From Escherichia phage K1G, in sequence record NC_027993.1: 43,587 nucleotides of DNA, one strand, 5' to 3'. Positions 5,159 through 40,991 of this stretch are shown here, piece after piece. Position numbers and translations under genes: made by a program. Within the stretch, counting starts at the first letter, position 1; each line of letters opens with the position of its first letter. Below the pieces are notes generated by a model. The model was not told the origin of the DNA and ran no database searches. It was given only the letters and a program-made list of their open reading frames with translations.

Positions 5159-5240
5159 TTGCCTTGCATGTTGGAATAATTTATTCTTGACATGTAAATC
5201 CGGGTGGCCCGGGTTCCAACGTCCAGGGGACATACTGACT

Positions 5241-12881: not shown

Positions 12882-13366
12882 TATTTATCACTCCCATGTG
12901 GTTTTAAGTGTGTAGAGTTCCCGTTACAGTCGTATTCAGTAACTGCGTGAGTGGTTATGCCGAGTTCGCGGAAATGCTTTATTACCGCTGGAGAGTCGTC
13001 GAATGCACACAAGATTCTCTCCGGCCCAATAGCACGCAACACCTCTTCTTTAATTACGATGTCTTTTCTGTTGTCGTGTTTGCTGCGCATGATTAACTGA
13101 TAAAATTCGACGCGGTGGCGCTGCAACCACATTCTGGTTTCTTTTTCCGCGTCATCACTACGGCCTGTTAAGATAATAACGGCATAGCGACGATTAAGGG
13201 CGTTACACAGTTCGATGTTATCTTTAATGGGTGCATCGTCTTTGCACGCCATGTTAAATGGTTTCCACGCCCAGGTTTCGCCGTAGTTATCTTTCGGCAG
13301 CAGGTGTAAACGATGAGTACCATCTGCCAATGTCCCGTCTAAATCGAAAATCACAATATCTTTCAT
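12881..13366 (-). CDS. HAD-superfamily phosphatase (polynucleotide 3'-phosphatase-like or 5'-nucleotidase-like)
   Basis: HAD motif I FDLDGTLAD, motif II ILTGR, motif IV AFDDSP; 161 aa. Confidence 0.75.
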   Translation of the reverse strand: MKDIVIFDLDGTLADGTHRLHLLPKDNYGETWAWKPFNMACKDDAPIKDNIELCNALNRRYAVIILTGRSDDAEKETRMWLQRHRVEFYQLIMRSKHDNRKDIVIKEEVLRAIGPERILCAFDDSPAVIKHFRELGITTHAVTEYDCNGNSTHLKPHGSDK

Positions 13367-14493
13367 CCAAGCATCTCCGGTGAAATAGTTAAACGTGCGA
13401 CCTCGCCATATTCGGCGCTATAAGTAATTACGTTTGCGCTACGGCCTGACATCCACCCGCCGCGGGAAGCATATGCATCTTTCGCCGCTAAGGTGCGATG
13501 TTGCTCAACAACCATGTTACGGCTTTCTACAATCTTTTGGTGGTGGAGATGCCCGACATGTGCGTAACTGTACTCGCTTTCGCCGAACGCTTTGCGGAAC
13601 TTGGCGATCATAACCGGTTCGATAGCATCGAAGCGTGCTTTATGGCCGTGGTGAAAGAACAGCGTAGTTTTGCCGTGTTGCACCATCTTGTAAACATCCG
13701 GCGACGTATCGACGAACACACGCGGCTCATTGTCGTACAGCGTACTAAACATCTCAGCTAACCAAATCATTCCGCTTTCGTCGTGGTTACCTTGCACAAT
13801 AAGCAAGCGAACATTTTTATGCTTAACAAGGGCCATATCAACGACACGGCGGACCATACGAATCATGTAGCGGACCAGTTTCTGATAGCGCGTGTCCGCA
13901 TCGAGAACATGACCACTTGCCGGTGTAACGGCGTCCAGACTATCGAAATGCGCAAGGTCGCCCAGCAGATTAATAACTCCTGTTCCGGCATCCGGTGCTT
14001 TCTGGAACGCTGCGTCGAACCAGCGGGAGAACAGGTCTTCCGCAATCTTCATGTCCCAGTCGTCGCCGCTCTCGTCAGCCCAGGCCAGCATACCGAGATG
14101 GAAATCAGACACAGTGTAAAGGTTGAGTAGCTTGTCGTCTCGTTTGGCGCGAACGGCTTTAACAGGTGCAACTGGTGTAATCTCCGACTTCATGCCTTCG
14201 ATTACGGCTTTCATCAATTCAACCTGACGTTCGGCATCGGTGTCGGTCTTAACCCATTGCAACTTGGTGTTGCCAAACTCATCCACCAGTGATGACGTTC
14301 CTTTAATCTTGTAGCCGTCCGGTACAAGGTAACTAACGTCACGCCCGTGGCCTACACCTTTCTTAGCCAGCTTCGCTTTACGGATACGAATAACGCGGTC
14401 GGAGATGCCGTATTTACGGGCGATGTCGATATTCTTCATACCGGCGTTCAATTCTTCCTGTAACTGTTCGTCGGTTATTTTCTTCCTGGCCAT
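13363..14493 (-). CDS. calcineurin-like metallophosphoesterase with N-terminal HTH
   Basis: motifs DFHLG, GDLAHFD, GNHDE, GHLHH in order; N-terminal segment NIDIARKYGISDRVIRIRK HTH-like; RBS GAGGAA. Confidence 0.75.
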   Translation of the reverse strand: MARKKITDEQLQEELNAGMKNIDIARKYGISDRVIRIRKAKLAKKGVGHGRDVSYLVPDGYKIKGTSSLVDEFGNTKLQWVKTDTDAERQVELMKAVIEGMKSEITPVAPVKAVRAKRDDKLLNLYTVSDFHLGMLAWADESGDDWDMKIAEDLFSRWFDAAFQKAPDAGTGVINLLGDLAHFDSLDAVTPASGHVLDADTRYQKLVRYMIRMVRRVVDMALVKHKNVRLLIVQGNHDESGMIWLAEMFSTLYDNEPRVFVDTSPDVYKMVQHGKTTLFFHHGHKARFDAIEPVMIAKFRKAFGESEYSYAHVGHLHHQKIVESRNMVVEQHRTLAAKDAYASRGGWMSGRSANVITYSAEYGEVARLTISPEMLG

Positions 14494-14530
14494 GCTTATT
14501 CCTCGTGTTTAGGATTTGTCCTATACTAGC

Positions 14531-14722
14531 TCACTTCTCTTTGACATTCGAGTTGCACGCCCAGATTAAGATAAATACCCACGGCAGCAGAACCCAACCA
14601 AGAAACAGATTAGCCATGAATATCGCTAACTTCGCTTTATGGTTACGGAAGTACGCAACCAGGAAAGGCGCGAAATAAGCGAGCAGTGCAAACAGAATTA
14701 AGGAAACTGGTAAACTGGACAT
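14531..14722 (-). CDS. small 2-TM membrane protein, superinfection-immunity-like (Imm-type motif)
   Basis: 63 aa from ATG 14722 (RBS AAGGGG; track ORF starts 15 nt upstream); motif RNHK...NLFLGWVLLPWVFILIWA recalled as typical of Imm_superinfect family. Confidence 0.5.
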   Translation of the reverse strand: MSSLPVSLILFALLAYFAPFLVAYFRNHKAKLAIFMANLFLGWVLLPWVFILIWACNSNVKEK

Positions 14723-14752
14723 TTTAAACCCCTTCATTGTTGGTGTAAGTGA

Positions 14753-14781
14753 ATAGTACCCTATTATATTGGGGTGTGCAA
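14753..14781 (-). promoter_or_regulatory. early-type promoter TTGCAC-N17-TACTAT (family 2) driving the antisense cassette
   Basis: minus-strand sequence cTTGCACaccccaatataatagggTACTATtcac nearly identical to + strand promoter at 37043; contains AATAG-N4-CTATT. Confidence 0.5.
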
Positions 14782-24828: not shown

Positions 24829-24854
24829 AAGGCCCCAAACGGGGCCTTTTCTCT
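24829..24854 (+). terminator. rho-independent terminator (convergent junction, bidirectional)
   Basis: AAGGCCCC-AAAC-GGGGCCTT hairpin then TTCTCT. Confidence 0.7.
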
Positions 24855-25172: not shown

Positions 25173-26593
25173 TTCTTACCTCGTCTCTTCATATAATTAA
25201 GCAACTCTTCTTGCACAGATTTCTTTTCGTCAGTACGCGCGGCGACAACCTCGTCCAGCGTGTCTTTAGCAACGATGTGGTACAGGAACACCGGCCTCTC
25301 GTGTCCTGCCTGTTTCTGGCGGACCGGGCCTATTCGCTCGACAACCTGCAAATAGTGCTCAAGGTTCCAGCCTTGCGAGATGAATGCCAGATGATGTCCG
25401 CCGTCCTGTAAATTCAAACCATGTCCGGCCGACGCAGGATGCACGCATAAGATTTCGATTTCGCCGCGGTTCCATGCTTCCATCTGCTTATTACCCTTAG
25501 CACCTTTCGCGAATGCCTGCGCCTGCGGGAAACGTTTCAGGATACGCTCCAGTTCGTGCTTGAACTGATAGGCTACCAGTAGCGGAGCACCCTGTAACTC
25601 CTCAACAATTGACTCCAGCGCATCCAGTTTCATGTCGTGCACTTTCTCCCAGTCTTTGGTTGCTTCTCCGTCTGGCCCTGATACATACACAGCACCAGAA
25701 GCAATCTGCAAACACTTTGACGTCTTTGCCGCGGCGTTAGCCGCTTCAACTTCTCCGCTTTCCAGTTCCGCGAATAACTTTTCCTCCATATCGATGTACG
25801 CCTGACGCGCTTTCTTCGGCAGATCTATTTCAACCGGCACTATAATAGGCGCTTCACAACCGAACCACTCAGCGGCGTCAATCGTGAGACTAATGTCCTT
25901 CATCTTCTGGTGGATCTCATTATCTGCACCAGGACGCGCATGATACTCCCGCGCCATCGCCGACTTACCTTTTTGCACAGAGTTGAACCAGCGGTCGGTG
26001 AACGCAGTGTACGATGAACCGAGGCGCTCGCCAGCGTCGATAAACCAGTTCTGGCCCCACAGGTCTTTGAGGCCGTTAGGCGACGGTGTGCCCGTCAGAT
26101 TGATGAAACGCTTAACTTTACCGAACGCCACTTTGCTGAGCGCCTTTGCCCGCTTGCTACCACCAGAACGGCTACGGAATGACTTCAGTTTCGTACTCTC
26201 ATCTGCAACGATAACCGTAAAAGGCCAGTCGTCTTTGCCGTAGTAGTCAATCAGCCACTCGATAACTTCGTAGTTGGTACACACCACGTTAACATCTGAC
26301 TCCAGCGCCGCGATGCGGCGTTTCTCTGAACCTGTCGCATCTACGACACGCAGGCACGGGAATCGCCATTTCTCTTGTTCTGCCGGCCATGTACCTGATG
26401 CAACGCGCAACGGGGCGAGAATTAACACGCGGTCGTCGTCCGTAAGTTGCCCGTTGCGGAACAGGCGGTTTAAAGTCCACAGGACGCTGCCAGTCTTCCC
26501 GGCGCCCATGCTCGCCCAAATATTACAGCGATGGTGTTGCAGCATGAACGAAGTCATGAGCTTCTGGTATTCGCGCCTTTGAAACTTACTCAT
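25169..26593 (-). CDS. SNF2-family DNA helicase/ATPase
   Basis: motif I GAGKTG, motif II DESTKL, LTGTP; 474 aa. Confidence 0.8.
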   Translation of the reverse strand: MSKFQRREYQKLMTSFMLQHHRCNIWASMGAGKTGSVLWTLNRLFRNGQLTDDDRVLILAPLRVASGTWPAEQEKWRFPCLRVVDATGSEKRRIAALESDVNVVCTNYEVIEWLIDYYGKDDWPFTVIVADESTKLKSFRSRSGGSKRAKALSKVAFGKVKRFINLTGTPSPNGLKDLWGQNWFIDAGERLGSSYTAFTDRWFNSVQKGKSAMAREYHARPGADNEIHQKMKDISLTIDAAEWFGCEAPIIVPVEIDLPKKARQAYIDMEEKLFAELESGEVEAANAAAKTSKCLQIASGAVYVSGPDGEATKDWEKVHDMKLDALESIVEELQGAPLLVAYQFKHELERILKRFPQAQAFAKGAKGNKQMEAWNRGEIEILCVHPASAGHGLNLQDGGHHLAFISQGWNLEHYLQVVERIGPVRQKQAGHERPVFLYHIVAKDTLDEVVAARTDEKKSVQEELLNYMKRRGKK

Positions 26594-27410
26594 TTACGGC
26601 CCCCATAAACGCCTTTATAAATTCGGCGGCTACTTGCGGGACGATGGCATTGCCGTAACCGCGCAATCGTCCCACTCTTGCGGGTATCCCATTAGCCAGC
26701 GGGAATGCGCCGGGTTCAACCGGCCGGAACTTTCCATCACGGCATCCGAGCCAGTCAGCATCTGACCAGAAGCCGTGGTGCGGGTTGGTTGACTCGCTTT
26801 CAATCCCTGCTCTGTTGAGTAGTCCAGCCTGTCGAATGTTCTGTCCCTCCCGTCCGTGCGAATCACTGTCTCTCCGCTCCCTCTGAAGTCGTTCGCTGTC
26901 GGTGTAGGCCAGTTCGTGCGCGCCAAAGAAGAGTCGTTCTCTTTTGTGCGGTGCGCCGACGCTACAAGCTGGGAGTACAGCAAACCCGACGGCGTAGTCT
27001 TCTCCTTCCAGGTGAGCTTGTAAATCGCACATCCACGATTTTGCAATTGCTGCCGCAACCTGCTCCCCAAAGATGACTGGAGGGCGGCACTCGCTGATGA
27101 GGTCGAGGAAGACCGGCGCGAGGTGTCTCGGGTCGAACTGTCCGAGTTGCTTTCCCGCCGCGCTAAACGGTTGGCAAGGCGGGCTTCCCGTCCAGAGAGG
27201 CGCATCTTCCGGAACTCCCGCAAGTCTGAGCGCGAGAGGCCAGCCGCCGATACCCGCGAAAAAATGACACTGGGTGAACCCGTCAAGGTCTTCTGGCTTA
27301 ACTTCGGTAATGCTTCTTTCATCTACAACTCCAAAAGGTATGTGACCCTGTTTTATCAACTCACGCAGCCACGCGGCTGCGCCTTTATCCCATTCATTGT
27401 AATAGTTCAT
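26586..27410 (-). CDS. DNA (cytosine-5)-methyltransferase
   Basis: motif I FFAGIGGW, motif [19 protein letters not shown] (ENV-like), C-terminal GYGNAIVP. Confidence 0.8.
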
Positions 27411-27598
27411 TTCGCCACCAGAACTAACTCTTTACGCCCGAACGCCGTAACGTTACCGGTTACATCTTCGATAACCAGTTTACCGTTCGACTCGACGAAC
27501 ACCGTATCAACGGCAACAGGTTGACGTGTCTTAACGTTGAAAATCATGTCACCCGGTACGATGTCACGTGCTGGTTTGCGGTCATATTCGTGTTTCAT
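27407..27598 (-). CDS. hypothetical protein
   Basis: 63 aa, RBS AAGGAA, first gene downstream of promoter at 27632-27660. Confidence 0.5.
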   Translation of the reverse strand: MKHEYDRKPARDIVPGDMIFNVKTRQPVAVDTVFVESNGKLVIEDVTGNVTAFGRKELVLVAK

Positions 27599-27628
27599 TT
27601 CTCAATTCCTTATATTGTTGGTGTAGGA

Positions 27629-27913
27629 CTAACTATAATAGCTAGCTATTAGGTCGTCAACCTGTTTAAACGAACCAACGACAAAAACATTCGCACCACG
27701 TTTACGCATCCGCTCATGTTCCCGTAGCTGGTGCGGGTCTGGCTTCGTGTTCTCGTCTTTCTTAACCTCGACGAACCAGACTATGCCGCCGGGGAGAATT
27801 ACCAGCAGGTCTGGGGCGCCGGAACGCCCCTCGTAGGAGAGTTTGCGAACGAGGCCGCCAAGGGCCTCGAATCGGTCTTTTGCGTATTTCTGTACGCGGC
27901 CCTCTTTAGTCAT
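27629..27913 (-). CDS. VRR-NUC domain nuclease
   Basis: PD-(D/E)xK signature GAPDLLV...VEVKK; ATG at 27913 overlaps upstream stop. Confidence 0.6.
   Translation of the reverse strand: MTKEGRVQKYAKDRFEALGGLVRKLSYEGRSGAPDLLVILPGGIVWFVEVKKDENTKPDPHQLREHERMRKRGANVFVVGSFKQVDDLIASYYS
27632..27660 (-). promoter_or_regulatory. early promoter TTGACG-N17-TATAGT (family 1) with 16-bp perfect palindrome TAATAGCTAGCTATTA in spacer
   Basis: read on minus strand: TTGACGacctAATAGCTAGCTATTATAGTT. Confidence 0.6.
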
Positions 27914-28062
27914 GAGCGTAGATCCCAAGTAAGGAAAGCCCCTCCTAGAACGGCGACACCGACAAACTTAAAGAACAGGCCGTAACAGAACATCGCGGCT
28001 ATTCCTGCACCGAGTAGCAGTGCGAGCATGGTTACTATCACCCGAAATACGAACATTGTCAT
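27910..28062 (-). CDS. small membrane protein (50 aa, 2 predicted TM)
   Basis: strong RBS GGGAGGGG 9 nt upstream of ATG; hydrophobic MTMFVFRVIVTMLALLLGAGIAAMF... Confidence 0.4.
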   Translation of the reverse strand: MTMFVFRVIVTMLALLLGAGIAAMFCYGLFFKFVGVAVLGGAFLTWDLRS

Positions 28063-28144
28063 AATACGCACCCCTCCCGTTTGGTATGCTCAATTCCGCA
28101 GCGCGGGCAGATTCGACAGTCTTCTTCATAAAACCAGTAAATTT

Positions 28145-28276
28145 TCATTCCAGCACCCACAGATAAATTGCGATGAACATGCCCAATATGGCAACCATCA
28201 TGCCGTATTGACCCTCGTGACAGTAGACACCGGCAGCAAATCCCGCCAGTACCGCGATAATCAGTTTACTTGGCAT
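28145..28276 (-). CDS. small membrane protein (43 aa)
   Basis: ATG overlaps 3' end of polymerase gene; hydrophobic sequence MPSKLIIAVLAGFAAGVYCHEGQYGMMVAILGMFIAIYLWVLE. Confidence 0.3.
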   Translation of the reverse strand: MPSKLIIAVLAGFAAGVYCHEGQYGMMVAILGMFIAIYLWVLE

Positions 28277-30446
28277 AACGCTTCATCTCCGCGCCTTCTG
28301 CTACAAGAGGGAACCCCTCGGCCCACTCTGGTAATTCGCACATCAATCGTTCCAGTTCTGCGACATTGTATTCTGGTAAATCTGGTGTCTCGCAGATAAT
28401 CTCATCGTGAACATGAAGCACAATCGGGTAGCCGTTTGCTTCGACGTTCAGCAGTGCATTAGCCAACAAATCACGGCACAGCGCCTGAGTGCAGTTTTCC
28501 ACCAGTTTACCAGAGTAGGTGTACTGGAAGCCCCACTGACGGGTTAACTGGTTTTCGCCCTGGTACTTGATGCGCACGTTGGTAGACACCTTCCCGTCTT
28601 CGTCTGTCTCTTTCGACACGCTTAGCCCAACACCCGGATAAGACATAACGCGGCCCGACGGCAACGTCATCCGCAACCACCAACCGGCGACTTTGTTGCC
28701 GTTGTTGTCCGTTTCTACGTTGCGCGAAAACTTAACTCCCCGCGGCCCTGCGGTGAACTCTTTGCCCGGATTGCGGATAGCTGCCATAGCTGCGTCTTCA
28801 ATATCCCGCCAGAAAGCTACTGTTTCCGGGTGTGACTCACGCCACATACGCTTGATAGCGTCGCAGGTACGCCACACTTTCTTATCAAGAATATAAGATG
28901 GTCGGTCATCATTTTCACCTGGACGTGGTGGTCGCTTGGCTTCCTGAATACGCGCCCACTCATATCCACGTGCGGTAGCAGCCCAGATGTAGTCGGGGAA
29001 AGTCCCGTCCATTGTTTTTGCCATATCAACGAGGTCAAGGCCGAGGTTCTTGGCGAACTGTACGAATGCGCCGACACCACCCGCGTAGCCAAGTCCAAGT
29101 TCGCATGCCTTACCAATCTGGCGTAAGTCTTTACGTTCTTTCTTAATGTAATCCGGCTCCATGCCGAACATCTTGCCTGCGGTTACGCAGTAAATATCCA
29201 GCCCGGCACGGAACGTATCAAGCGCGGTTTCTTCGCCAGCCAGCCACGCCAAACCGCGGCCTTCAACGTTCGAGTAGTCGGCGACGACAAACTTATGTCC
29301 GGCTTCCGGGATAATGCAGCTGCGAACCGTAGATGCCGTTAGCTTGGCTACATCAAAACGGCGATGTGCTCGGCCCTTAAGTAATGCTGAAATACCTTTA
29401 TCCAGTTCATCATCGTGATAGTACCCACGCGCCAGGTTCTGCGGCTGGAAGCCTTTACCCGCAAATCGTAACGTACGTTTAGCTCCACCATACTGGATGC
29501 AACCGCGACGGCGGTCGTCAGACGAGCGGCCTAACAGCAGCGGGTTATATTTCGTTGACGCAGTGGATGCCGCCCCGAGGCGCATTTCTATAATCGTGCG
29601 GGCGTCGTCCGGTAAATCATCGTCAGCAAGCAGGTCGTTAAGCGTAGACTTCTGCGCGTTGTGGATGCGATGCGCAGGTGCCAGTTCACGCAGAATCGGC
29701 AGGAAGTCCTTACCTGTAAGCGAGCCGCCGTATTTACGTTGGGCTTCTTCCTGTAACTGTGCCTTGTGTTTCTCCACAGCTTCAATTGCGGCTTCCGCCA
29801 GCGCAACGTCGACCTTAAACCCGCGGTCGTTAATTAACTGGTCCAGTTCCAGTACACGGTCTTCGAACTCGGAGTTACCCCAACGCGGCAACTTATGGAA
29901 CACTTCACGCATCGCGGTGATGTCGCTAACGGCGTACTTGATGAACAGCGCCCACTCATCCGGGTGCGTTTCAGCAGTGTAGCGGCGAATTTTGTAGTTC
30001 TTCGGCGTCGGTTTAGAGAAACGCTGAATAAGCGCTTTGCCTCGTTTGTCTTTCGCGTTGTCTGCAGACACGCCAAGCACTTCGCACAATGCGTCGAGTG
30101 AACCCGGCAGCGCGTGACGAAACGCCCAAATCATCGTATCAATGGTGTTGCTTACGGGAATATCAAAACCCCAGCAGTGCTTCATGATGAGTCTGTCGAA
30201 CATTGAGCCGTTGTGCCACACCATCTTAATACGGCTGTTTGGTTTCACCAGACGGCGTAACGCGCGGTGCAAATCACCCGGCATGTCGCTGCCGTTGGTG
30301 CAATCCCATACCTGCACAGGCTCGTCGTCAAAAGCATATGTGCAGATTAGAACTTCGGTGGTTGGATGTTCGGCGTAAGCGTAGGAGCCGACTTTCTTCA
30401 AATCGGCTTCGGAGAATGTTTCAAAGTCTAAGAACAGGTAACTCAT
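28266..30446 (-). CDS. family-A DNA polymerase with 3'-5' exonuclease domain
   Basis: N-terminal Exo I motif FLDFETFS, C-terminal motif C HVHDEIICE; 726 aa. Confidence 0.85.
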   Translation of the reverse strand: MSYLFLDFETFSEADLKKVGSYAYAEHPTTEVLICTYAFDDEPVQVWDCTNGSDMPGDLHRALRRLVKPNSRIKMVWHNGSMFDRLIMKHCWGFDIPVSNTIDTMIWAFRHALPGSLDALCEVLGVSADNAKDKRGKALIQRFSKPTPKNYKIRRYTAETHPDEWALFIKYAVSDITAMREVFHKLPRWGNSEFEDRVLELDQLINDRGFKVDVALAEAAIEAVEKHKAQLQEEAQRKYGGSLTGKDFLPILRELAPAHRIHNAQKSTLNDLLADDDLPDDARTIIEMRLGAASTASTKYNPLLLGRSSDDRRRGCIQYGGAKRTLRFAGKGFQPQNLARGYYHDDELDKGISALLKGRAHRRFDVAKLTASTVRSCIIPEAGHKFVVADYSNVEGRGLAWLAGEETALDTFRAGLDIYCVTAGKMFGMEPDYIKKERKDLRQIGKACELGLGYAGGVGAFVQFAKNLGLDLVDMAKTMDGTFPDYIWAATARGYEWARIQEAKRPPRPGENDDRPSYILDKKVWRTCDAIKRMWRESHPETVAFWRDIEDAAMAAIRNPGKEFTAGPRGVKFSRNVETDNNGNKVAGWWLRMTLPSGRVMSYPGVGLSVSKETDEDGKVSTNVRIKYQGENQLTRQWGFQYTYSGKLVENCTQALCRDLLANALLNVEANGYPIVLHVHDEIICETPDLPEYNVAELERLMCELPEWAEGFPLVAEGAEMKRYAK

Positions 30447-30460
30447 TATTTTTGACCCTT

Positions 30461-30486
30461 AGTAAAAAGGCCCAATGAAGGGCCTT
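30461..30486 (-). terminator. rho-independent terminator for leftward transcripts
   Basis: minus-strand AAGGCCC-UUCAUU-GGGCCUU followed by UUUAC. Confidence 0.6.
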
Positions 30487-30505
30487 AGTTAAATTGATTC
30501 AGATA

Positions 30506-31132
30506 TTAGCGACGACGACGCTCGCGGCGCGGTGCTTCATCTTCTTCGTCGTCTTCCAGGTCATTTACGCTGGCAGCGACTTTAGAACCGCCAAACGCTT
30601 TACCTTCACCAACGTATTTAATAGCCAGCAGGTTAACGCCGAGGACTTTGTATTTCTGGCTGAACCAGATTTCAACGCTTACGTTAGCGACGCAGCCGCT
30701 GTAAACCTGTTCACCTTCAATCTGTTCGCCGTCTACATTGAAGTCCTGTTCTACCTGAGTCTCGCCTTTTTTAGAGGTTACAATCAGTGGCTGTTTCTGT
30801 GCCTTCGCCTTGAAGTAGAAGCCTTCCGGGAAGTCTTCAAACGGATTGTCGCGCTCGGCAATGTCTTTAATCGCACATTTATCCATGTGCTTACCTTCGC
30901 CGTAGTTGGACTTCATCCACTTCTCAGCGGCAGCTGCGCCCAACGCTTCTTCAACCACAGCGTAAACGGTGTCGTAGAGCGCGTCGATTTGTGCGTGGTC
31001 AGACGGCAGGATGATAGTCGCGCTGTACTGGCCTTTAGTGATTGAGCCATCATCGTTTTCACGGTCTTTTTCGCGTTCGAATACGTTAACCCATGCAGTG
31101 TTTACTTTACGCAGATTCAGTTTAATACCCAT
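30506..31132 (-). CDS. ssDNA-binding protein (DUF2815-like) with acidic C-terminal tail
   Basis: 208 aa, C-terminus DLEDDEEDEAPRRERRRR; adjacent to Cas4-like exonuclease and polymerase as in known phage replication modules. Confidence 0.65.
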   Translation of the reverse strand: MGIKLNLRKVNTAWVNVFEREKDRENDDGSITKGQYSATIILPSDHAQIDALYDTVYAVVEEALGAAAAEKWMKSNYGEGKHMDKCAIKDIAERDNPFEDFPEGFYFKAKAQKQPLIVTSKKGETQVEQDFNVDGEQIEGEQVYSGCVANVSVEIWFSQKYKVLGVNLLAIKYVGEGKAFGGSKVAASVNDLEDDEEDEAPRRERRRR

Positions 31133-31185
31133 CGTGATTTCTCGCTTTTCAGTTTACTCCGGGAACTGCCCGGCCAGTGATTAGA

Positions 31186-31214
31186 ACTATAATAGCTAAC
31201 TATTCGGGTGTCAA
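31186..31214 (-). promoter_or_regulatory. early promoter TTGACA-N17-TATAGT (family 1)
   Basis: minus strand TTGACAcccgAATAGTTAGCTATTATAGTT; near-palindromic AATAG-N4-CTATT. Confidence 0.6.
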
Positions 31215-31218
31215 CACT

Positions 31219-32469
31219 TTATTCCAAATCTTCTTCACTAACCTGATTCCACTCAGGACGTTTGTCGTCTGCCGTTGCGACACATGGTGCGCCTGGCTTA
31301 CGGGTAATAAACGGCTCAAGCGCTGCCATCTCATCCGCAGAAAGAACTTTTGCTGCCTCCGTAGGGGACATCAATACCTCTTTTTTGAGAATGTCGCCGT
31401 GTGACACTTCAATCGCATCGGCATCTTTCCACGCACGATTACCCAGGCGGCCTTCTACCAGTTTGTACCCTGGCACTTTATTACCGGAATGCAATGCGGC
31501 GGACATCGCTTTCTCAACCTTGTCGATGTGCTGGCGCAACAGCGGCAACTTCTCATACTCAACTACGAGTTGCTCCGTCGTCAGTTCCAGCACAAAGTCG
31601 TCTTCAAGTTCTTCCGCTAGTACAGAATTAACCGTCTTTGTACGCGCGGCACACTGTTCAGAGAACCGGCACCACTGGCAACCATCGACCGACGGTTTAA
31701 AGTCCGACGCTTTCAGGTTCTTCTTTCCACGGAAATAAGCATCAAGCGCTAACAGTGCCCGTTTCTGTGCGAACTTAGCGAACAGTTCCAGACCTTCGAC
31801 CGAGATGTCCCACTCTGACGCACCCCCCGCGTACGGCTGGAAGATGACCAGGCGCACTACTGTGATGTTATAACGTCTCTTGAGTCGGCGATAAACACCG
31901 AGAGCGTAAAGCATAAGCTGCTTGTTTTCTTTCGCTTCAACACGATGCCGTCCAGTTTTAAGGTCGCCAATAATGAGCATGTGCTCGTCGGTGTTCGCCA
32001 GTTCCTGGACAGCAACGAGGTCAGCCGTTCCGAACGTCTCGACACCTTCATACCCAGGATGCAATACCTCAGTAAGATTGACTCGCATTTCCAGCTTGGC
32101 GTAAGTCGCTACGTCGATAATCGCTTTGCAGTAGTCGGTGTACTTGCGCACCTGCTCAATCATGTCCGCCGTAATCAGTACCGCGCCTTTCATTGGGCTG
32201 ATTAGCGCCTTAATCTGGCCTTTACCTTCATCCAGCACGTAAGCGCCGACTTCACGCTCTAATGGCAGAGCAGTGCCTTTGATGTACTGGTTAAGGTGCA
32301 TCTCCGCTATGGTGTGGCATGCAGTCCCTGTAACGGCGGCTTTACCAGACGTGTTGGGAATATCTTTCTCACAGGCCAGTGATGCACTGCACGCCAGCCA
32401 CTTTTTAGCGCCAGACGGCGACAGTAAGGCGTGCACATCGTTATTGCCGCCGCGTTCCTTTAAAATCAT
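31219..32469 (-). CDS. Cas4/RecB-like PD-(D/E)xK exonuclease (DUF2800-like)
   Basis: N-terminal LLSPSGAKKWLACSA, nuclease motif IIGDLKTG...QLMLYA, C-terminal Cys cluster CQWCRFSEQC; ATG at 32469 with RBS GGGAGAG. Confidence 0.7.
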   Translation of the reverse strand: MILKERGGNNDVHALLSPSGAKKWLACSASLACEKDIPNTSGKAAVTGTACHTIAEMHLNQYIKGTALPLEREVGAYVLDEGKGQIKALISPMKGAVLITADMIEQVRKYTDYCKAIIDVATYAKLEMRVNLTEVLHPGYEGVETFGTADLVAVQELANTDEHMLIIGDLKTGRHRVEAKENKQLMLYALGVYRRLKRRYNITVVRLVIFQPYAGGASEWDISVEGLELFAKFAQKRALLALDAYFRGKKNLKASDFKPSVDGCQWCRFSEQCAARTKTVNSVLAEELEDDFVLELTTEQLVVEYEKLPLLRQHIDKVEKAMSAALHSGNKVPGYKLVEGRLGNRAWKDADAIEVSHGDILKKEVLMSPTEAAKVLSADEMAALEPFITRKPGAPCVATADDKRPEWNQVSEEDLE

Positions 32470-32738
32470 ACCCTGCTCTCCCACTGGTCAATTAAATGTC
32501 GTGTCTTATGGTCGCAGTGCATAGCCCAGCCATACATCGACTCGAAGACGTAAAAGTCCGGTTTGGCGAAAGTCGAGCGCTTAATATGTGACACGTGGCG
32601 GCCTATGTCTTTAGGCCGTGGCACTTTGCCTAAGTACGCCATATCTTCCATCTGGTGTGCACCGGACGGCGCACGCAATAACCATAGTGCCTCTGTGTTA
32701 TCCCGCCGGTCAACGGCGCGGTATAGTTGGTAAATCAT
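32466..32738 (-). CDS. hypothetical protein
   Basis: 90-aa ORF, stop overlaps exonuclease start. Confidence 0.5.
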   Translation of the reverse strand: MIYQLYRAVDRRDNTEALWLLRAPSGAHQMEDMAYLGKVPRPKDIGRHVSHIKRSTFAKPDFYVFESMYGWAMHCDHKTRHLIDQWESRV

Positions 32739-32781
32739 AATCCCGACCCTCAGTTAAAGCGGCCCGAAGGCCGCGGGATAG

Positions 32782-33303
32782 TTATTCTTCTTCGAAATAC
32801 TTGTTCTTGATTGCTGTCAGGCGCTCCAGATACTCAGCCAGGTCTTCGTCTTTAATCGCTGCAATCTTCATCTTCTTACCGGTAAACTCTTCCAGCAGTT
32901 CGTCAGAATCGTCGCACGCGGCATCGCTTGGGCCTTCGTTAATCGCATCGTCGATAGCCTGAATCTGGTCGCGCAGAGACTGGTAATCGACTTCTTCTTT
33001 CTCTTCTTCCGGCTCTGGCGTTGGTTCCTCTACTTTGTCCTTACGCGGCTTGCGCTTCGGCTTCTCTTCTTCTGCTGGTTTAGTGTCGACGATGTCTTCA
33101 CCTTCAACCGGGATTTCTTTCGCCTTCTCGACTTCTTCAAGTGCTTTAGCCAGTTCTTTTTTAACTGTCTCTACCCCAGTTACCGCGACGTCAACAGTCA
33201 ATTCACCTACAGATTTGCTAGTCGGTTGTTTCACACTGTTTGCAGCAATCAGTTCGTGGGCGACTACGAAACGTTCCAGTAATACCAAGAATTTCTCTAA
33301 CAT
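32782..33303 (-). CDS. acidic early protein
   Basis: 173 aa, strongly acidic C-terminal two thirds; strong RBS GAGGAGAG; first gene after promoter 33335-33363. Confidence 0.6.
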   Translation of the reverse strand: MLEKFLVLLERFVVAHELIAANSVKQPTSKSVGELTVDVAVTGVETVKKELAKALEEVEKAKEIPVEGEDIVDTKPAEEEKPKRKPRKDKVEEPTPEPEEEKEEVDYQSLRDQIQAIDDAINEGPSDAACDDSDELLEEFTGKKMKIAAIKDEDLAEYLERLTAIKNKYFEEE

Positions 33304-33334
33304 TTGTTTCTCTCCTCTCGTTTGGTATGGGCTA

Positions 33335-33363
33335 ACTATAATAGCGAACTATTCACTTGTCAA
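33335..33363 (-). promoter_or_regulatory. early promoter TTGACA-N17-TATAGT (family 1)
   Basis: minus strand TTGACAagtgAATAGTTCGCTATTATAGTT. Confidence 0.6.
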
Positions 33364-33427
33364 TGGGCTTTTCTAAAATAATTAATATGGTACTATTCAC
33401 ATATCAACTGACTAAGGAGTAATTGGC

Positions 33428-33643
33428 ATGCAACCATCTGAACTAGGTATCCGTGTAGAGCAACGCCGTAAAGAACTCGGTATCTCCCAGCGCCATCTGG
33501 CTGTCCTGGCCGGTGTTTCCCAAGGCGCGATTAACCAGCTGGCACTTGGGGTAACTCAGGACGTCCGCCCAGCGACGCTGTTTAAACTGGCGGAAGTGCT
33601 GCAAGTAGACGCCAAGTGGCTGGCGTTCGGTGAAGGGGCTTAA
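33428..33643 (+). CDS. XRE/Cro-type HTH transcriptional regulator
   Basis: 71 aa; HTH segment ISQRHLAVLAGVSQGAINQL; RBS AAGGAG; divergent from leftward early operon. Confidence 0.7.
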   Translation: MQPSELGIRVEQRRKELGISQRHLAVLAGVSQGAINQLALGVTQDVRPATLFKLAEVLQVDAKWLAFGEGA

Positions 33644-33660
33644 CGCCCCTTTCTTTTTAT
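33635..33660 (+). terminator. rho-independent terminator
   Basis: GGGGC-TTAAC-GCCCC hairpin followed by TTTCTTTTTAT. Confidence 0.7.
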
Positions 33661-33854
33661 TGCACCTTTATCGGGTATCTTTTGCGAAACTTACCTAACC
33701 CGCAGTATACGCTGTAAGCCTCTGTGTAACTGTACACAACATGATACCCGCGCCCGTAAGGAACTACGTTAAGAACTTCCACTACTTCGCCTCTGTGGTT
33801 GGTGTATTTATTACCTTTAAGTTCGTCGCTTACTTCTTTAAATTTACCGCTCAT
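33657..33854 (-). CDS. hypothetical protein
   Basis: 65-aa ORF, start overlaps primase-helicase stop. Confidence 0.5.
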   Translation of the reverse strand: MSGKFKEVSDELKGNKYTNHRGEVVEVLNVVPYGRGYHVVYSYTEAYSVYCGLGKFRKRYPIKVQ

Positions 33855-36118
33855 TCCAAATCCTCCTCTGTCACTGTCAGCATCTCATTCGGTTCATATA
33901 TTGTCTTCGGAATCTTGTTATCAGTTATCCGGGTGTTCAGCCTGTAACGGCCAGGGATTATCTGATTGTTTTCGTCAGTCCCCGGAACAAGATACCCAGC
34001 CTCAACCATTTTCTTAATCTTCCCGCGTTCTATGGCTTCTTTGGAGTTAAACGCCTTTGCATTGGGGTCAGACTGTGCGAGCTTATTAGCGGCGGCGACT
34101 GTGATGCCTTCGTTGCCGTTGTAGGTTCCTTCCGCCAGTTCAAACGCCGCCAGTATCGTGGCTTCTGAACTGTTGACGGCGTTCTCTATGGTTTTACGTA
34201 CGTTTTCTTTACCTTCTTTCGTCAACCCTTCTTCCCGCTCTTTCTCCTCGTCAGTCTTGAACGGCTCGAAACCCCACGGCATTAACACAAGTGCCTTATG
34301 CGGCTCCGGCAGGTCTAGGTTTACGATTGTGCCGTATTCCTCCGTGCTACCGAGGAACTCAACCGCACGGTACTCTTTCGGCGGCGGCGCTTCACGGAAC
34401 TGTACAGACTCCAGCACCATACCAACCGTCTTCTGTTGAGGCCCGTGCTTGAATTTCGAGTGGTATACATTTATCTGGCGGTCGGTAGCTCGTTCGATTG
34501 TCAGTTCCACGTCGACGCCAGCATACAGCGCCCCACTGCCACGGGCTTTCTTTCCGCCCTTCGGCGTATGGTGGACAACGCCTACCGCAGCTTTAGTCGC
34601 GTCACGTACTTCTTTCAGGATGGCGATAACCTTACCCATGCCGATTGCCGTTGATGAACTGTTCTCGTCGAACTTATCAATCGTCAGGGCTAGCGTCTGG
34701 TTGAGGGTGTCGAACGCAACCATGCCGATGGGTTCGTCACCCGCAGTTTCACGCATCAACTTAATCAGGCTTTTCAGTTTTCCGACTTCGCCCATGTCGA
34801 TGACATGTACATAATCTTTACCTTCCTCGCTATACTTAGCTGCGAGCGCATCGATACGGGTGCGTGTAGCTGCGCCGCCCTCACCGTCGATATAAAAATG
34901 GTGGCAACGCTGCGTATCTGCCCCCGCAAACCGGTATCCGGCGGCGCTCAGGTACATCATCCCCAGCGTATAGAACGATTTGTACGTGCCGGATTCCCCG
35001 ACAATATCCCAGATACAATCTGACGGCATGTACCCTTCAACGACGAAATCCGCCTTTACCGGTTCCGGTAACTCGTCATCCTCTGAGTCCTCGTCATCTT
35101 CCAGGTCGTCGAGGCTGCATGAAACAGATTCACGTGCACCCCATCCGATGGCCTCTGCGACTTCACTGAACGGCAGCCCCGTCGCATCGCACGCATACTT
35201 CCACACCTCTTTCGGTGACATGCCTTCGGTCGCCGTAATGTCAGTGTCGTGAATCATGGTTACGTTCGGCGCCTCATATCCCTCTCGCGGGAAGCACAGC
35301 AGGAAGTCATCCGGGCGCGGCGTCGGGTCGCTGTAGTTTTCTGCGTGTTCTGGCGTAGCTGGCATCTTAAGGCCTCGTGGCGTCATGATACCGCCATACT
35401 CGAACGCCAGTGCCTCGAACGCGTCGGTAAACGCGGTGCGCAGTTCTTCCGGTATCTGGTAATCCGATGCGCTGCTAACGTCAACGGCGGGGATGCCTTC
35501 CAGTAACTCGTCCGGGTCAATCAGGTCGTTGCGGCGTGACCAGATAACGGTAGAGCCAACCGGAGGCAGGTACATCGGTTGCGAAAGAGTGAACCCGCTG
35601 CGGTCAGCACCCATGCTTTTGAAGAAGTGTTCCAGCAATCCATGGCGAACACGGATGATGTCACCACCTTCGACCGGACGGGCCAGCGGCATGACGACGC
35701 GAAAGCGCGGGGACTCGTCGGTATGTGATGCCGTGGTATAGATACACATGCCCCGGCGGCTGCGTTTAACTAAGCGCACCGCTTCCTGATACTCTTCTGG
35801 TGTTGCGCTGTCGAAGTCCAGATACGCCAGCGACGATTTGCTTACAGACGCGTCACAGCGATAGAAAAAGCCTTTACGCGCTTGCTTAAAGTCGCCGGTT
35901 TCCGGGTCTTTTACAGTGCTGTGCGTCGAGTCGCACGCGGCGGTGATATAACCGGGCGCGGTCTTCGGGTTAATTCCGTCACGGACAGCATCGAGTGGCT
36001 GGATTAACTCTTTCAGGTCGTCCAGTGTTGCCGTGTGTGTGGTTCTGACGTTTATATCCTTTTTCTCAGCCCGCGCGTTGCGACGCGACCACGAGTAGGA
36101 TAAAATTACATCGGACAT
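33851..36118 (-). CDS. DNA primase/helicase (RecA-fold ATPase)
   Basis: 755 aa; Walker A-like GESGTYKSF, large N-terminal domain; RBS GAAGGAAA. Confidence 0.7.
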   Translation of the reverse strand: MSDVILSYSWSRRNARAEKKDINVRTTHTATLDDLKELIQPLDAVRDGINPKTAPGYITAACDSTHSTVKDPETGDFKQARKGFFYRCDASVSKSSLAYLDFDSATPEEYQEAVRLVKRSRRGMCIYTTASHTDESPRFRVVMPLARPVEGGDIIRVRHGLLEHFFKSMGADRSGFTLSQPMYLPPVGSTVIWSRRNDLIDPDELLEGIPAVDVSSASDYQIPEELRTAFTDAFEALAFEYGGIMTPRGLKMPATPEHAENYSDPTPRPDDFLLCFPREGYEAPNVTMIHDTDITATEGMSPKEVWKYACDATGLPFSEVAEAIGWGARESVSCSLDDLEDDEDSEDDELPEPVKADFVVEGYMPSDCIWDIVGESGTYKSFYTLGMMYLSAAGYRFAGADTQRCHHFYIDGEGGAATRTRIDALAAKYSEEGKDYVHVIDMGEVGKLKSLIKLMRETAGDEPIGMVAFDTLNQTLALTIDKFDENSSSTAIGMGKVIAILKEVRDATKAAVGVVHHTPKGGKKARGSGALYAGVDVELTIERATDRQINVYHSKFKHGPQQKTVGMVLESVQFREAPPPKEYRAVEFLGSTEEYGTIVNLDLPEPHKALVLMPWGFEPFKTDEEKEREEGLTKEGKENVRKTIENAVNSSEATILAAFELAEGTYNGNEGITVAAANKLAQSDPNAKAFNSKEAIERGKIKKMVEAGYLVPGTDENNQIIPGRYRLNTRITDNKIPKTIYEPNEMLTVTEEDLE

Positions 36119-36176: not shown

Positions 36177-36452
36177 TTATTCCAGGTCGCGGGAGATATT
36201 ACCCTCGGGCACCAACACTTTTCCAATACTTCTCGCTTTCTCTGTAATAGGCGTCGCTCTTGTTGCCCGATAAAACTTTCCTTTATTAAGAATCTCACCA
36301 TGTCGCTCGAGCACATCTAAAGCATGTTTGATCGGGTTTACACCGTAATTATCCAACCGGTATCTCCGAAGCCCGTCTACCGTAAAAGCGCCGTTCGCTT
36401 CGGTCAGTCTGCGTGCACACATTAATATGTGTTTCTGGAATTTAGTTAGCAT
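36177..36452 (-). CDS. hypothetical protein
   Basis: ATG at 36452 with RBS AAGGAG; overlaps 3' end of upstream HTH gene. Confidence 0.45.
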   Translation of the reverse strand: MLTKFQKHILMCARRLTEANGAFTVDGLRRYRLDNYGVNPIKHALDVLERHGEILNKGKFYRATRATPITEKARSIGKVLVPEGNISRDLE

Positions 36453-36621
36453 CTTTAACGTTCTCCTTAATCCACGCCTCCACAGTAGCGCGGTCAAAGG
36501 TACCTGGCTGACGGTAGCCGTTGATAACGCGGCAACACTCCGGGAACTTTCCTGACCGAAGCCAGCGATTAAGAGTCATAGGGGAAACCCCGATTAAGTC
36601 TGCTACTTCTTTCTGTGTCAT
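36442..36621 (-). CDS. AlpA/Xis-like HTH DNA-binding protein
   Basis: MTQKEVADLIGVSPMTLNRWLRSGKFP; ATG at 36621 with RBS GAGGG (track ORF begins at TTG 36651). Confidence 0.6.
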   Translation of the reverse strand: MTQKEVADLIGVSPMTLNRWLRSGKFPECCRVINGYRQPGTFDRATVEAWIKENVKDAN

Positions 36622-36778
36622 TTTACGCGCCCTCTCTATCAAGTGAAACAACTATAACACCTACAATAGACAAACACAACCTATTGACAAAATAAAATGT
36701 AGCTGTAAAATCAACGTATCGAATGGCTTTAGTTAAGAATTACTTAGAAACAATATTCTTAAGTCTCGGGTACTTAAA

Positions 36779-37042: not shown

Positions 37043-37071
37043 TTGCACACCCCAACATAATAGGATACTAT
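37043..37071 (+). promoter_or_regulatory. early promoter TTGCAC-N17-TACTAT (family 2)
   Basis: cTTGCACaccccaacatAATAGGATACTATTcac. Confidence 0.5.
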
Positions 37072-37096
37072 TCACTTATCGAAACGAGACAGAGGA

Positions 37097-38365: not shown

Positions 38366-38394
38366 TTGCACACTAAGATAGAATAGGCTACTAT
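38366..38394 (+). promoter_or_regulatory. early promoter TTGCAC-N17-TACTAT (family 2)
   Basis: cTTGCACactaagatagAATAGGCTACTATTcat. Confidence 0.5.
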
Positions 38395-38425
38395 TCATTT
38401 ACACAAACGAGAGGAGAGACGGAAG

Positions 38426-40909: not shown

Positions 40910-40929
40910 CCGTTTTCTGTAATGACTAG

Positions 40930-40958
40930 TTGACTATTACCTTAGACCCTATTATATT
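40930..40958 (+). promoter_or_regulatory. promoter TTGACT-N17-TATATT
   Basis: hexamers and 17-bp spacer read directly; upstream of ORF 40992. Confidence 0.5.
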
Positions 40959-40991
40959 TACTCCATCGACAACGAGAACGGAGTAGAGAAA

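What the first reader, a model, noticed from the sequence alone, without database searches (positions are those of the whole stretch)
27632..33363. Three near-identical leftward early promoters (TTGACA-N17-TATAGTT) with a conserved spacer
The sites at 27632-27660, 31186-31214 and 33335-33363 share TTGAC(A/G) and a 21-bp core AATAG(C/T)T(A/C)GCTATTATAGTT when read on the minus strand. Each sits just upstream of a block of minus-strand early genes. Spacer conservation beyond the hexamers implies selection for a bound factor or recent duplication, and it divides the replication region into at least three transcription units.
Basis: seen in the sequence. Interest (0 to 1): 0.45.

Follow-up and report, generated by a model that had tools for sequence, protein, structure and literature searches.

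The report
Shared operator inside phage early promoters
The three look-alike promoters are real, and their shared "spacer" is a 14-bp palindromic binding site found at eight or more promoters of this lytic E. coli phage, most likely the operator of the phage's own small Cro-like repressor; this is a classical control circuit in a less usual setting, not a new mechanism.

Summary
Observation confirmed. Three minus-strand sites (27631-27660, 31185-31214, 33334-33363) read TTGAC(A/G)-N4-AATAG-N4-CTATTATAGTT. No shuffle reproduced this. They are the three best sigma-70-like promoters in the region.

The window is a Kagunavirus (Guernseyvirinae), about 97% identical to phage K1H.

The conserved spacer is a 14-bp dyad, AATAG-N4-CTATT. 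There are six exact copies (0.04 expected) and two one-mismatch copies. All eight overlap a core promoter element, in three different registers and on both strands, and five lie outside the three reported promoters.

The arms are conserved across Kagunavirus, a 75-77% lineage and Jerseyvirus. The central 4 bp and the linker to the -35 vary. This excludes recent duplication and points to a dimeric binding protein.

The best candidate is the 71-aa HTH_3 protein at 33428-33643. It is transcribed divergently from site 3, its closest solved relative is phage 434 Cro, and a weaker dyad sits on its own promoter. Binding, repression and timing are inferred, not shown.

The three promoters share one downstream terminator, so their transcripts are nested rather than separate units.

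Three genome papers already list the motif as a PHIRE "phage promoter". None links it to the repressor.

Interest is modest.

The parts
27632..27660 (-). Promoter PL1: TTGACG-N17-TATAGT. Lies inside the 3' end of the VRR-NUC ORF. Heads the 63-aa ORF, methyltransferase and SNF2 helicase genes.
27637..27650 (.). Dyad operator AATAGCTAGCTATT, a perfect 14-bp palindrome at about -25 to -12 of PL1.
31186..31214 (-). Promoter PL2: TTGACA-N17-TATAGT. Begins right after the exonuclease stop codon. Heads the DUF2815/ssDNA-binding and DNA polymerase genes.
31191..31204 (.). Dyad operator AATAG-CTAA-CTATT (plus-strand reading).
33335..33363 (-). Promoter PL3: TTGACA-N17-TATAGT. Heads the 173-aa ORF, the 90-aa ORF and the exonuclease gene. 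Divergent from the HTH gene.
33340..33353 (.). Dyad operator AATAG-CGAA-CTATT (plus-strand reading).
33384..33397 (.). HTH-proximal weaker dyad AATATGGTACTATT: one good arm and one degenerate arm. It overlaps the candidate -10 (TGgTACTAT, 33388-33396) of the HTH gene. It lies 44 bp from the PL3 dyad.
33428..33643 (+). 71-aa HTH_3 protein resembling 434 Cro; the candidate dyad-binding repressor.
33632..33652 (+). Intrinsic terminator after the HTH gene.
37043..37072 (+). Rightward promoter PR1: TTGCAC-N17-TACTAT. The dyad AATAGGATACTATT (37059-37072) covers the -10.
38366..38395 (+). Rightward promoter PR2: TTGCAC-N17-TACTAT. The dyad AATAGGCTACTATT (38382-38395) covers the -10.
14752..14781 (-). 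Leftward promoter of the same type as PR1/PR2: TTGCAC (14781-14776)-N17-TACTAT (14758-14753). The dyad is at 14752-14765. It heads the Imm / phosphatase / PNKP-like cluster embedded in the tail module. It is near-identical to PR1.
40925..40958 (+). Promoter TTGACT-N17-TATATT. A one-mismatch dyad ACTAGTTGACTATT (40925-40938) lies over the -35, and a CTATTATATT half-element lies at the -10.
24829..24848 (-). The only minus-strand intrinsic terminator found downstream of PL3, PL2 and PL1; their common 3' end.
36445..36621 (-). Second small DNA-binding protein (HTH_17, excisionase/AlpA-like); the alternative candidate reader of the dyad.

Best explanation
The three sites are strong host-RNA-polymerase (sigma-70) promoters that launch nested leftward transcripts through the replication genes. 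Their conserved 'spacer' is a 14-bp two-fold symmetric operator, AATAG-N4-CTATT. The same operator is built into at least eight promoters of this Kagunavirus, always over a core element. It covers the spacer and the upstream edge of the -10 at the three leftward promoters. It covers the -10 itself at three TTGCAC-N17-TACTAT promoters and at the HTH gene's own promoter. It covers the -35 at one more promoter. The most likely reader is a dimer of the 71-aa 434-Cro-like HTH protein encoded at 33428-33643, divergently from site 3. When bound it would exclude RNA polymerase. As the protein accumulates it would turn down the early/middle promoters together, and at higher levels its own promoter through the weaker operator. 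This would be a Cro-type shut-off circuit without a cI partner. Shown: the sequence anatomy, the statistics, the conservation pattern and the protein family. Inferred: that a protein binds, that it is this protein, that the effect is repression, and the timing. My sub-confidences: promoters real ~0.85; dyad is a protein operator ~0.75; reader is the Cro-like HTH ~0.55.
For: (1) Six exact dyads against 0.04 expected, and nine with <=1 mismatch against 1.24 expected. It is the top 5-N4-5 palindrome in the window, in Jerseyvirus Shelanagig, and in every one of 25 Kagunavirus and 12 Jerseyvirus loci. (2) Every copy overlaps a promoter-like element, in three different registers relative to -35/-10. 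What stays constant is the dyad, not its position relative to polymerase. (3) The arms are conserved while the centre and linker vary. At site-2 orthologues, nucleotide diversity is 0.05 and 0.03 for the arms, 0.50 for the centre and 0.38 for the linker (alignments). A 1-bp indel falls in the linker, and the dyad stays in register with the -10. (4) Natural arm variants fall at mirror-image positions 2/13 and 4/11. (5) The adjacent divergent gene is HTH_3 (E 9.7e-12). Its best solved relative is 434 Cro, also 71 aa (E 4.9e-7). The AF2 model's top PDB hits are 434 Cro, 434 repressor and P22 c2. PHROGs labels it a transcriptional repressor. A 45%-identical homologue sits at the cro position of a lambdoid phage whose operators are 434-type. 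(6) From established knowledge, 434 and P22 operators have the same 5-N4-5 geometry with an uncontacted, variable centre. (7) A weaker dyad lies on the HTH gene's own promoter in all lineages. (8) The HTH protein is strongly conserved within each lineage, and a 75-77% lineage with an identical helix 3 keeps all the dyads. (9) The promoters are near-consensus with 17-18 nt spacers, so they need no activator.
Against: There are no binding, footprint or transcript 5'-end data. The recognition helices differ between Kagunavirus (SQGAINQ) and Jerseyvirus (SQSLITH), although the operator arms are the same. The PSDA-2-like clade and contig L183 have Jersey-like helices but only degenerate, poorly symmetric versions of the motif. 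L183 has a different palindrome, CCCTACGTCGTAGGG, in the site-3 spacer. Regulator-operator covariation is therefore not clean. No homologue outside this phage group shares the helix, so there is no independent test. A second small DNA-binding protein (HTH_17) and several ORFs of unknown function are also encoded nearby. Spacing between the two operators in the HTH/PL3 region varies (43-45 and 55 bp), so helical phasing is not strict.
Confidence: 0.55

Rival explanations
1. The dyad is a real operator, but it is read by a different protein: the HTH_17 excisionase-like protein (36445-36621), an uncharacterised early protein such as the 173-aa product just downstream of PL3, or a host factor.
For: A second DNA-binding gene and several ORFs without family hits lie in the same region. 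Covariation between the HTH_3 helix and the motif is not clean.
Against: HTH_17/Xis-type proteins of ~59 aa typically bind as monomers to direct repeats, not to 14-bp dyads (general knowledge). The HTH_3 gene has the classic divergent, self-operator arrangement. I know of no E. coli or Salmonella regulator with this consensus (from memory, not tested).
Confidence: 0.2
2. No separate factor exists. The motif is a phage-specific strong-promoter module read only by host RNA polymerase. It would act as an A+T-rich spacer or extended -10 context, or as a bidirectional -10 core. Its symmetry would be incidental.
For: The right arm always abuts or forms part of the -10 (CTATTATAGT or TACTATT). Three genome papers treat the motif simply as a promoter. 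The PSDA-2 clade keeps the -10-proximal half better than the symmetry.
Against: The left arm is as conserved as the right, yet it sits at different polymerase positions: about -25 to -21 at the leftward promoters, -19 to -15 at the TACTAT promoters, and upstream of the -35 at 40925. The reverse reading of the leftward sites (TATTCA) lacks the invariant final T of a -10. The variable 4-bp centre with mirror-symmetric arm variants is the signature of a dimer site.
Confidence: 0.15
3. The motif marks promoters for a phage-encoded RNA polymerase, as labelled in the fBC-Eco01 paper.
For: PHIRE output was labelled 'Phage RNAP promoter'.
Against: No RNA polymerase gene is annotated in K1H or in the fully annotated Shelanagig genome. 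The sites carry near-consensus sigma-70 -35 and -10 hexamers.
Confidence: 0.02
4. The similarity reflects recent copy-and-paste duplication of a promoter cassette, with no function for the spacer.
For: The three cores are 18/20 to 19/20 identical.
Against: The flanks are unrelated. The same arms are kept at orthologous sites in genera whose alignable DNA is ~76% identical, while the centre and linker drift.
Confidence: 0.03

Closest known systems
Phage 434 Cro / repressor and their 14-bp operators (ACAA-N6-TTGT, i.e. ACAAG-N4-CTTGT)
   Same: The protein is a single-domain HTH_3 of identical length (71 aa) with significant sequence and fold similarity. The operator is 14 bp, with 5-bp conserved arms and a variable 4-bp centre, and it overlaps sigma-70 promoters. 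The gene sits next to its own operator. The Gln that starts helix 3 is conserved.
   Different: The arm sequence is AATAG, not ACAAG (positions 2-3 differ). Helix 3 is SQGAINQ, not KQQSIQL. There is no cI partner, no three-operator OR and no lysogeny module. The operators are dispersed over at least eight promoters genome-wide. Binding is untested.
Lambda Cro turn-down of PL/PR during lytic growth
   Same: The proposed logic is the same: an early-made small repressor feeds back on the early promoters and on itself.
   Different: Lambda Cro has a different fold and 17-bp operators at two loci only. Here the host phage is a virulent siphovirus with no alternative lysogenic state.
P22 c2/Cro operators (TTAAG-N4-CTTAA core)
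   Same: 5-N4-5 geometry with an uncontacted centre, and shared inner AG...CT bases. P22 c2 is among the sequence and fold hits.
   Different: The P22 operator is longer (18 bp) with different outer bases, and the phage is temperate.
PHIRE-predicted 'phage-specific promoters / regulatory elements' of Kagunavirus and Jerseyvirus genome papers (fBC-Eco01 PMC9825357, Golestan PMC7203180, SGP-C PMC8790156)
   Same: It is the same motif (tgAATAGTa-ccTATTat-T; TAATAGTACCCTATTATGTT) with about seven copies per genome.
   Different: Those papers give only a 20-mer list. One ascribes it to a non-existent phage RNA polymerase. None notes the dyad symmetry, the three promoter registers or the link to the adjacent HTH gene.
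Restriction-modification controller (C) proteins and C-boxes
   Same: Small HTH_3 dimers that bind palindromes upstream of their own gene; they appear among the fold hits.
   Different: The C-box consensus (GACT...AGTC) is absent, there is no restriction endonuclease partner, and similarity is lower than to 434 Cro.

Membership tests
Sigma-70 (host RNA polymerase) promoter | -35 TTGACA-like and -10 TATAAT-like hexamers 16-18 nt apart | tested here: met
   TTGACA/TTGACG-N17-TATAGT scoring 10-11 of 12. These are the best sites in 24-43.6 kb. Orthologues keep a 17-18 nt spacer.
Sigma-70 (host RNA polymerase) promoter | Transcript 5' end 6-8 nt downstream of the -10; activity with holoenzyme | not testable with these tools
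   The only Kagunavirus RNA-seq paper found gives gene-level timing, not 5' ends. Its gene numbers could not be mapped to this window.
434 Cro/CI-type HTH_3 repressor-operator pair | HTH_3 (Cro/C1-type) DNA-binding domain | tested here: met
   Pfam PF01381, E 9.7e-12, 45 bits against a cutoff of 23.
434 Cro/CI-type HTH_3 repressor-operator pair | Sequence and fold similarity to 434 Cro; single-domain Cro-like size | tested here: met
   phmmer E 4.9e-7 to 1zug/2cro/3cro, both 71 aa. AF2 model pLDDT 86. The top Foldseek hit is 2cro, TM 0.77-0.83. Caveat: the 434 Cro sequence was one of five rows in the alignment used for the model.
434 Cro/CI-type HTH_3 repressor-operator pair | 14-bp dyad operators with conserved outer bases and a variable centre, overlapping promoters | tested here: met
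   AATAG-N4-CTATT: 6 exact copies and 2 near copies, all on promoter elements. Arms are conserved and the centre varies.
434 Cro/CI-type HTH_3 repressor-operator pair | Regulator gene adjacent to, and autoregulated through, its operators | tested here: met
   The gene is divergent from PL3, and a weaker dyad lies over its own -10 region. This arrangement is conserved in all lineages. Autoregulation itself is inferred.
434 Cro/CI-type HTH_3 repressor-operator pair | Demonstrated sequence-specific binding as a dimer | not testable with these tools
   No protein-DNA modelling or experiment is available here.
434 Cro/CI-type HTH_3 repressor-operator pair | Regulator and operator co-vary between lineages | tested here: inconclusive
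   Kagunavirus and Jerseyvirus helices differ but their arms are the same. The AATCG half-site variant occurs in 9 of 106 half-sites in Jersey-type loci against 1 of 258 in Kaguna-type loci, but these are not independent events. The PSDA-2 and L183 clades have degenerate or replaced motifs.
Lambdoid immunity switch (cI-OR-cro) | Divergent cI repressor gene, tripartite OR, integrase/lysogeny module | tested here: not met
   Replication genes lie opposite the HTH gene and there are only two dyads. No cI or integrase appears in the K1H or Shelanagig annotation. Compare RothD, which has all of these.
Phage-RNA-polymerase promoter (literature label) | A phage-encoded RNA polymerase | tested here: not met
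   None is annotated in the related complete genomes.
MerR-type activator site in the promoter spacer | Dyad centred in an over-long 19-20 bp spacer; MerR-family regulator with a coiled-coil | tested here: not met
   Spacers are 17-18 nt. The only MerR-like hit is a 59-aa HTH_17 protein without a dimerisation helix.

The most novel reading that the evidence does not exclude
The cI-less Cro-like repressor and its genome-wide operator set would act as a true immunity circuit. By silencing essentially all strong early promoters, it could hold the genome of a nominally strictly lytic Guernseyvirinae phage in a transient, episomal carrier (pseudolysogenic) state with superinfection immunity. One paper claims such behaviour for the Jerseyvirus SGP-C: turbid plaques and phage-positive immune colonies (PMC8790156). 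This would matter because these phages are widely proposed for therapy.
Probability: 0.1. Interest if true: 0.65.

Novelty: new member of a known kind. Interest (0 to 1): 0.35.

Why it matters
The finding replaces a vague "conserved spacer" and a mislabelled "phage RNAP promoter" in the literature with a concrete, testable circuit. That circuit is one small Cro-type protein and one 14-bp operator placed on at least eight promoters. It would coordinate replication, superinfection-immunity and small early genes in Kagunavirus and Jerseyvirus, two genera heavily used as therapeutic and biocontrol phages. If confirmed, it supplies a ready-made orthogonal repressor/operator pair and a handle for engineering or timing these phages. 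It also bears on reports of lysogen-like behaviour in this supposedly virulent group. It does not reveal a new mechanism.

Tried and rejected
1. Covariation of helix 3 with the operator across lineages was not clean.

2. The PSDA-2-like clade (HTH 39% identical) was tried as a contrast group. It has only degenerate, non-symmetric versions (ATTAG-N4-GTATT) with no significant enrichment: 25 observed against 15.4 expected at <=2 mismatches.

3. I searched for homologues outside Guernseyvirinae that share the helix, so the motif could be tested in an independent context. The word-indexed and exhaustive HMMER searches found none above ~50% identity. The top hits were multi-HTH repeat proteins.

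4. A pattern scan of IMG/VR for TGAATAGNNNNCTATTATA returned multi-hit contigs of 31-45 kb, several of them the same contigs recovered through the HTH protein. Single hits were at about chance level, so nothing was learned beyond specificity.

5. An Rfam scan of the window gave no hits.

6. A full-text search for the motif string returned only unrelated primers. The MB78 and Jerseyvirus RNA-seq searches found nothing usable.

7. The Kagunavirus K1B4 transcriptome paper lists an HTH gene among its 4 earliest genes. Its gene numbers could not be mapped to this window.

8. Fixed-offset conservation profiles failed because of indels and loose anchors (partly). MAFFT alignments and the clean site-2 set replaced them.

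9. Helical phasing of the two operators beside the HTH gene was rejected as strict. Spacing is 43, 44, 45 or 55 bp.

10. I compared the motif from memory with host-factor sites (ArgR, Fur, Lrp, CRP and others). None resembled it, and this was not formally tested.


Full report
**Identity of the window.** The region 26000-34000 is about 97% identical to Escherichia phage K1H and related K1-capsule phages of the genus Kagunavirus, subfamily Guernseyvirinae. It matches 491 phage records, mostly Escherichia Kagunavirus and Salmonella Jerseyvirus. The K1H annotation gives the local gene order on the minus strand:
- helicase-primase
- HTH protein (plus strand)
- 173-aa protein
- exonuclease
- DUF2815 ssDNA-binding protein
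- DNA polymerase
- VRR-NUC resolvase
- 63-aa protein
- methyltransferase
- SNF2 helicase

**Checking the observation.**
- TTGACGacctAATAGCTAGCTATTATAGTT
- TTGACAcccgAATAGTTAGCTATTATAGTT
- TTGACAagtgAATAGTTCGCTATTATAGTT

A degenerate 30-mer finds exactly these three even with three mismatches allowed, and none of 100 shuffles gave a match. In a generic sigma-70 scan they are among the four best sites of the 24-43.6 kb region, each with a 17-nt spacer. The shared core is 20 nt, not 21. Site 1 lies inside the last codons of the VRR-NUC ORF, whose TAG stop directly follows TATAGT.

**What the conserved spacer is.** The core contains a 14-bp palindrome, AATAG-N4-CTATT, which is perfect at site 1. 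It occurs six times exactly in the window against 0.04 expected, and nine times with at most one mismatch against 1.24 expected. It is the most frequent 5-N4-5 palindrome in the window.

The additional copies are:
- 37059-37072 and 38382-38395, on rightward promoters TTGCAC-N17-TACTAT, where the dyad covers the -10 itself.
- 14752-14765, on a near-identical leftward promoter. It heads a minus-strand cluster embedded in the tail module: superinfection-immunity protein, metallophosphatase, PNKP-type phosphatase and a P-loop protein.
- 33384-33397 (AATATGGTACTATT, one mismatch), directly over the likely -10 (TGgTACTAT) of the plus-strand gene 33428-33643.
- 40925-40938 (ACTAGTTGACTATT, one mismatch), where the dyad covers the -35 of a TTGACT-N17-TATATT promoter.

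The same dyad therefore sits on at least eight promoters in three registers relative to the core elements. The dyad itself is the constant feature, not a fixed polymerase contact.

**Comparative evidence.** I used the HTH protein as bait to fetch 55 loci from IMG/VR. I also fetched whole genomes of Jerseyvirus Shelanagig, the lambdoid phage RothD and the divergent PSDA-2, and three contigs of an intermediate lineage.

- AATAG-N4-CTATT is the top palindrome in every Kagunavirus locus (25) and every Jerseyvirus locus (12). It is absent from unrelated loci that carry HTH homologues.
- In Shelanagig the dyads lie at the orthologous promoters, although the -35 hexamers, linkers and centres differ.
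- In the alignment anchored only on the HTH start codon, the arms, the TG before the left arm and the -10 are invariant within Kagunavirus. The linker, three of the four centre positions and the start-site region vary. A 1-bp indel falls in the linker.
- For the clean set of site-2 orthologues, nucleotide diversity is 0.05 and 0.03 in the arms, 0.50 in the centre and 0.38 in the linker.
- The rare arm variants occur at mirror positions 2/13 (ACTAG, AGTAG, CTACT) and 4/11 (AATCG, CGATT).
- The intermediate lineage is 84-87% identical over alignable DNA, and its HTH is 75-77% identical with an identical helix 3. It keeps every dyad, including the weak one beside the HTH gene and the one over the -35.

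This pattern rules out recent duplication. It is what a dimeric sequence-specific binding protein produces.

**The candidate reader.** The gene 33428-33643 is transcribed divergently from site 3. Evidence about the protein:
- It is an HTH_3 protein.
- Its closest solved relative by sequence is phage 434 Cro, which is also 71 aa, followed by 434 repressor and P22 c2.
- An AlphaFold2 model (pLDDT 86) has 434 Cro as its top PDB match. The 434 Cro sequence was one of five rows in the input alignment; no templates were used.
- PHROGs files it under transcriptional repressors.
- Outside Guernseyvirinae, its tblastn matches include a 45%-identical protein at the cro position of the lambdoid phage RothD, whose cI-cro region carries 434-type ACAA-N6-TTGT operators, and the Rac prophage repressor DicA at 43.5%.

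From established knowledge, 434 and P22 operators have the same 5-N4-5 architecture, with conserved outer bases and an uncontacted, variable centre. AATAG differs from 434's ACAAG at positions 2-3. The Gln that starts helix 3 is conserved here. The next residue, Gln29 in 434, is Gly or Ser here. From memory, Gln29 reads positions 2-3 in 434. This is a lead, not a test.

The HTH/PL3 intergenic region thus resembles a reduced immunity region: a strong operator on the outward promoter and a weaker one on the regulator's own promoter, 43-45 bp apart in Kaguna-type phages and 55 bp in Jerseyvirus.

**Proposed mechanism.** The leftward promoters are near-consensus and need no activator. A dimer bound from about -25 to -12 (leftward promoters), from about -19 to -6 (the TACTAT promoters), or across the -35 (the promoter at 40925) would exclude polymerase. 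I therefore propose coordinated negative feedback on the replication, Imm/PNKP and small rightward gene promoters, with autoregulation through the weaker site. This resembles Cro-type turn-down of early transcription during lytic growth. No minus-strand terminator lies between PL3, PL2 and PL1, and the only one found is at 24848-24829. The three promoters should therefore give nested, 3'-coterminal transcripts, not three separate units.

**Weak points.**
- Nothing here shows binding.
- The Kagunavirus and Jerseyvirus helices differ (SQGAINQ and SQSLITH), yet the arms are the same.
- The PSDA-2-like clade and contig L183 have Jersey-like helices but only degenerate or asymmetric versions of the motif.
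- L183 has a different perfect palindrome, CCCTACGTCGTAGGG, in the spacer of the site-3 orthologue.
- The AATCG half-site is enriched in Jersey-type loci (9 of 106 against 1 of 258), but these counts are not phylogenetically independent.
- A second small DNA-binding protein, HTH_17/excisionase-like at 36445-36621, is an alternative reader.

**Relation to the literature.**
- The fBC-Eco01 paper reports seven PHIRE "phage RNAP promoters" with consensus tgAATAGTa-ccTATTat-T and lists the 20-mers.
- The Golestan paper reports seven PHIRE promoters.
- The Jerseyvirus SGP-C paper reports the element TAATAGTACCCTATTATGTT and calls the HTH_3 gene "Cro". It also claims lysogen-like colonies with superinfection immunity.
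- These phages encode no RNA polymerase, so the RNAP label is wrong.
- In the searchable corpus I found no paper that notes the dyad symmetry, the multiple promoter registers or a regulator-operator link.
- A Kagunavirus time-course transcriptome lists an HTH gene among its four earliest genes and replication genes as "middle". I could not map its gene numbers to this window.

**Verdict.** The promoter reading is well supported by sequence. The element is best described as a 434/P22-type dyad operator embedded in at least eight sigma-70 promoters, probably read by the phage's Cro-like HTH. It is a new member of a well-known kind of circuit, already half-noticed in genome papers, and of modest interest.

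Noticed in passing
window 4390-4402 and 5174-5186; also L002 5778 and 6534; L004 32065 and 33669: A second conserved palindrome, GAATA-N3-TATTC, lies immediately upstream of or abutting TTGAC -35 elements in structural-module intergenic regions. One copy follows the terminator at 4325-4345. It is present in all three clades, including PSDA-2. Its position suggests an activator site for late promoters.
   Followed up: partly
window ~31159-31173 (minus strand), just downstream of site 2: A 5'-UTR hairpin, CCGGGCAGTTCCCGG, follows PL2. It is conserved in Kagunavirus, Jerseyvirus and PSDA-2, and a variant form occurs in L183. It has no T-run, so it is not a terminator. It may be an mRNA-stability or processing element. 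Rfam has no match.
   Followed up: partly
window 33309-33322 (-), 38406-38419 (+), 37081-37095 (+), 40972-40988 (+): Several dyad-bearing promoters share a leader, (A)AACGAGAGGAGAGA, that includes the ribosome-binding site. The -10-to-leader distances are similar.
   Followed up: no
window 12327-14737 (minus strand): An early-type cluster is embedded in the tail module and driven by a dyad promoter. It encodes an Imm_superinfect protein, a 376-aa metallophosphatase, a HAD/PNKP-type phosphatase and an AAA_18 P-loop protein. This looks like an RNA-repair / anti-defence set.
   Followed up: partly
window 36620-36711, especially 36664-36686: A divergent promoter region upstream of the HTH_17 gene and helicase-primase operon lacks the 14-bp dyad. 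It contains CAATAG-N11-CTATTG, the same arms at a different spacing. A strong rightward TTGACA-N16-TAAAAT promoter lies at 36684-36711.
   Followed up: no
L183 ~3165-3290 (site-3 orthologue): In a divergent Guernseyvirinae-like contig, the spacer of the orthologous promoter carries a different perfect palindrome, CCCTACGTCGTAGGG, between TTGCGC and TATAGT. The operator slot appears to have been re-used.
   Followed up: partly
window 27629-27660: Promoter PL1 and its operator are encoded within the C-terminal codons of the VRR-NUC gene. The gene's stop codon is the TAG directly after the -10, so this stretch is constrained both as coding and as regulatory sequence.
   Followed up: yes
literature: PMC8790156 (Jerseyvirus SGP-C): The paper claims turbid plaques and phage-positive, superinfection-immune colonies, possibly episomal, for a phage 94% identical to SETP3. 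It attributes this to the Cro-like and HTH_17 genes. The claim is unverified but relevant to the role of the repressor.
   Followed up: partly
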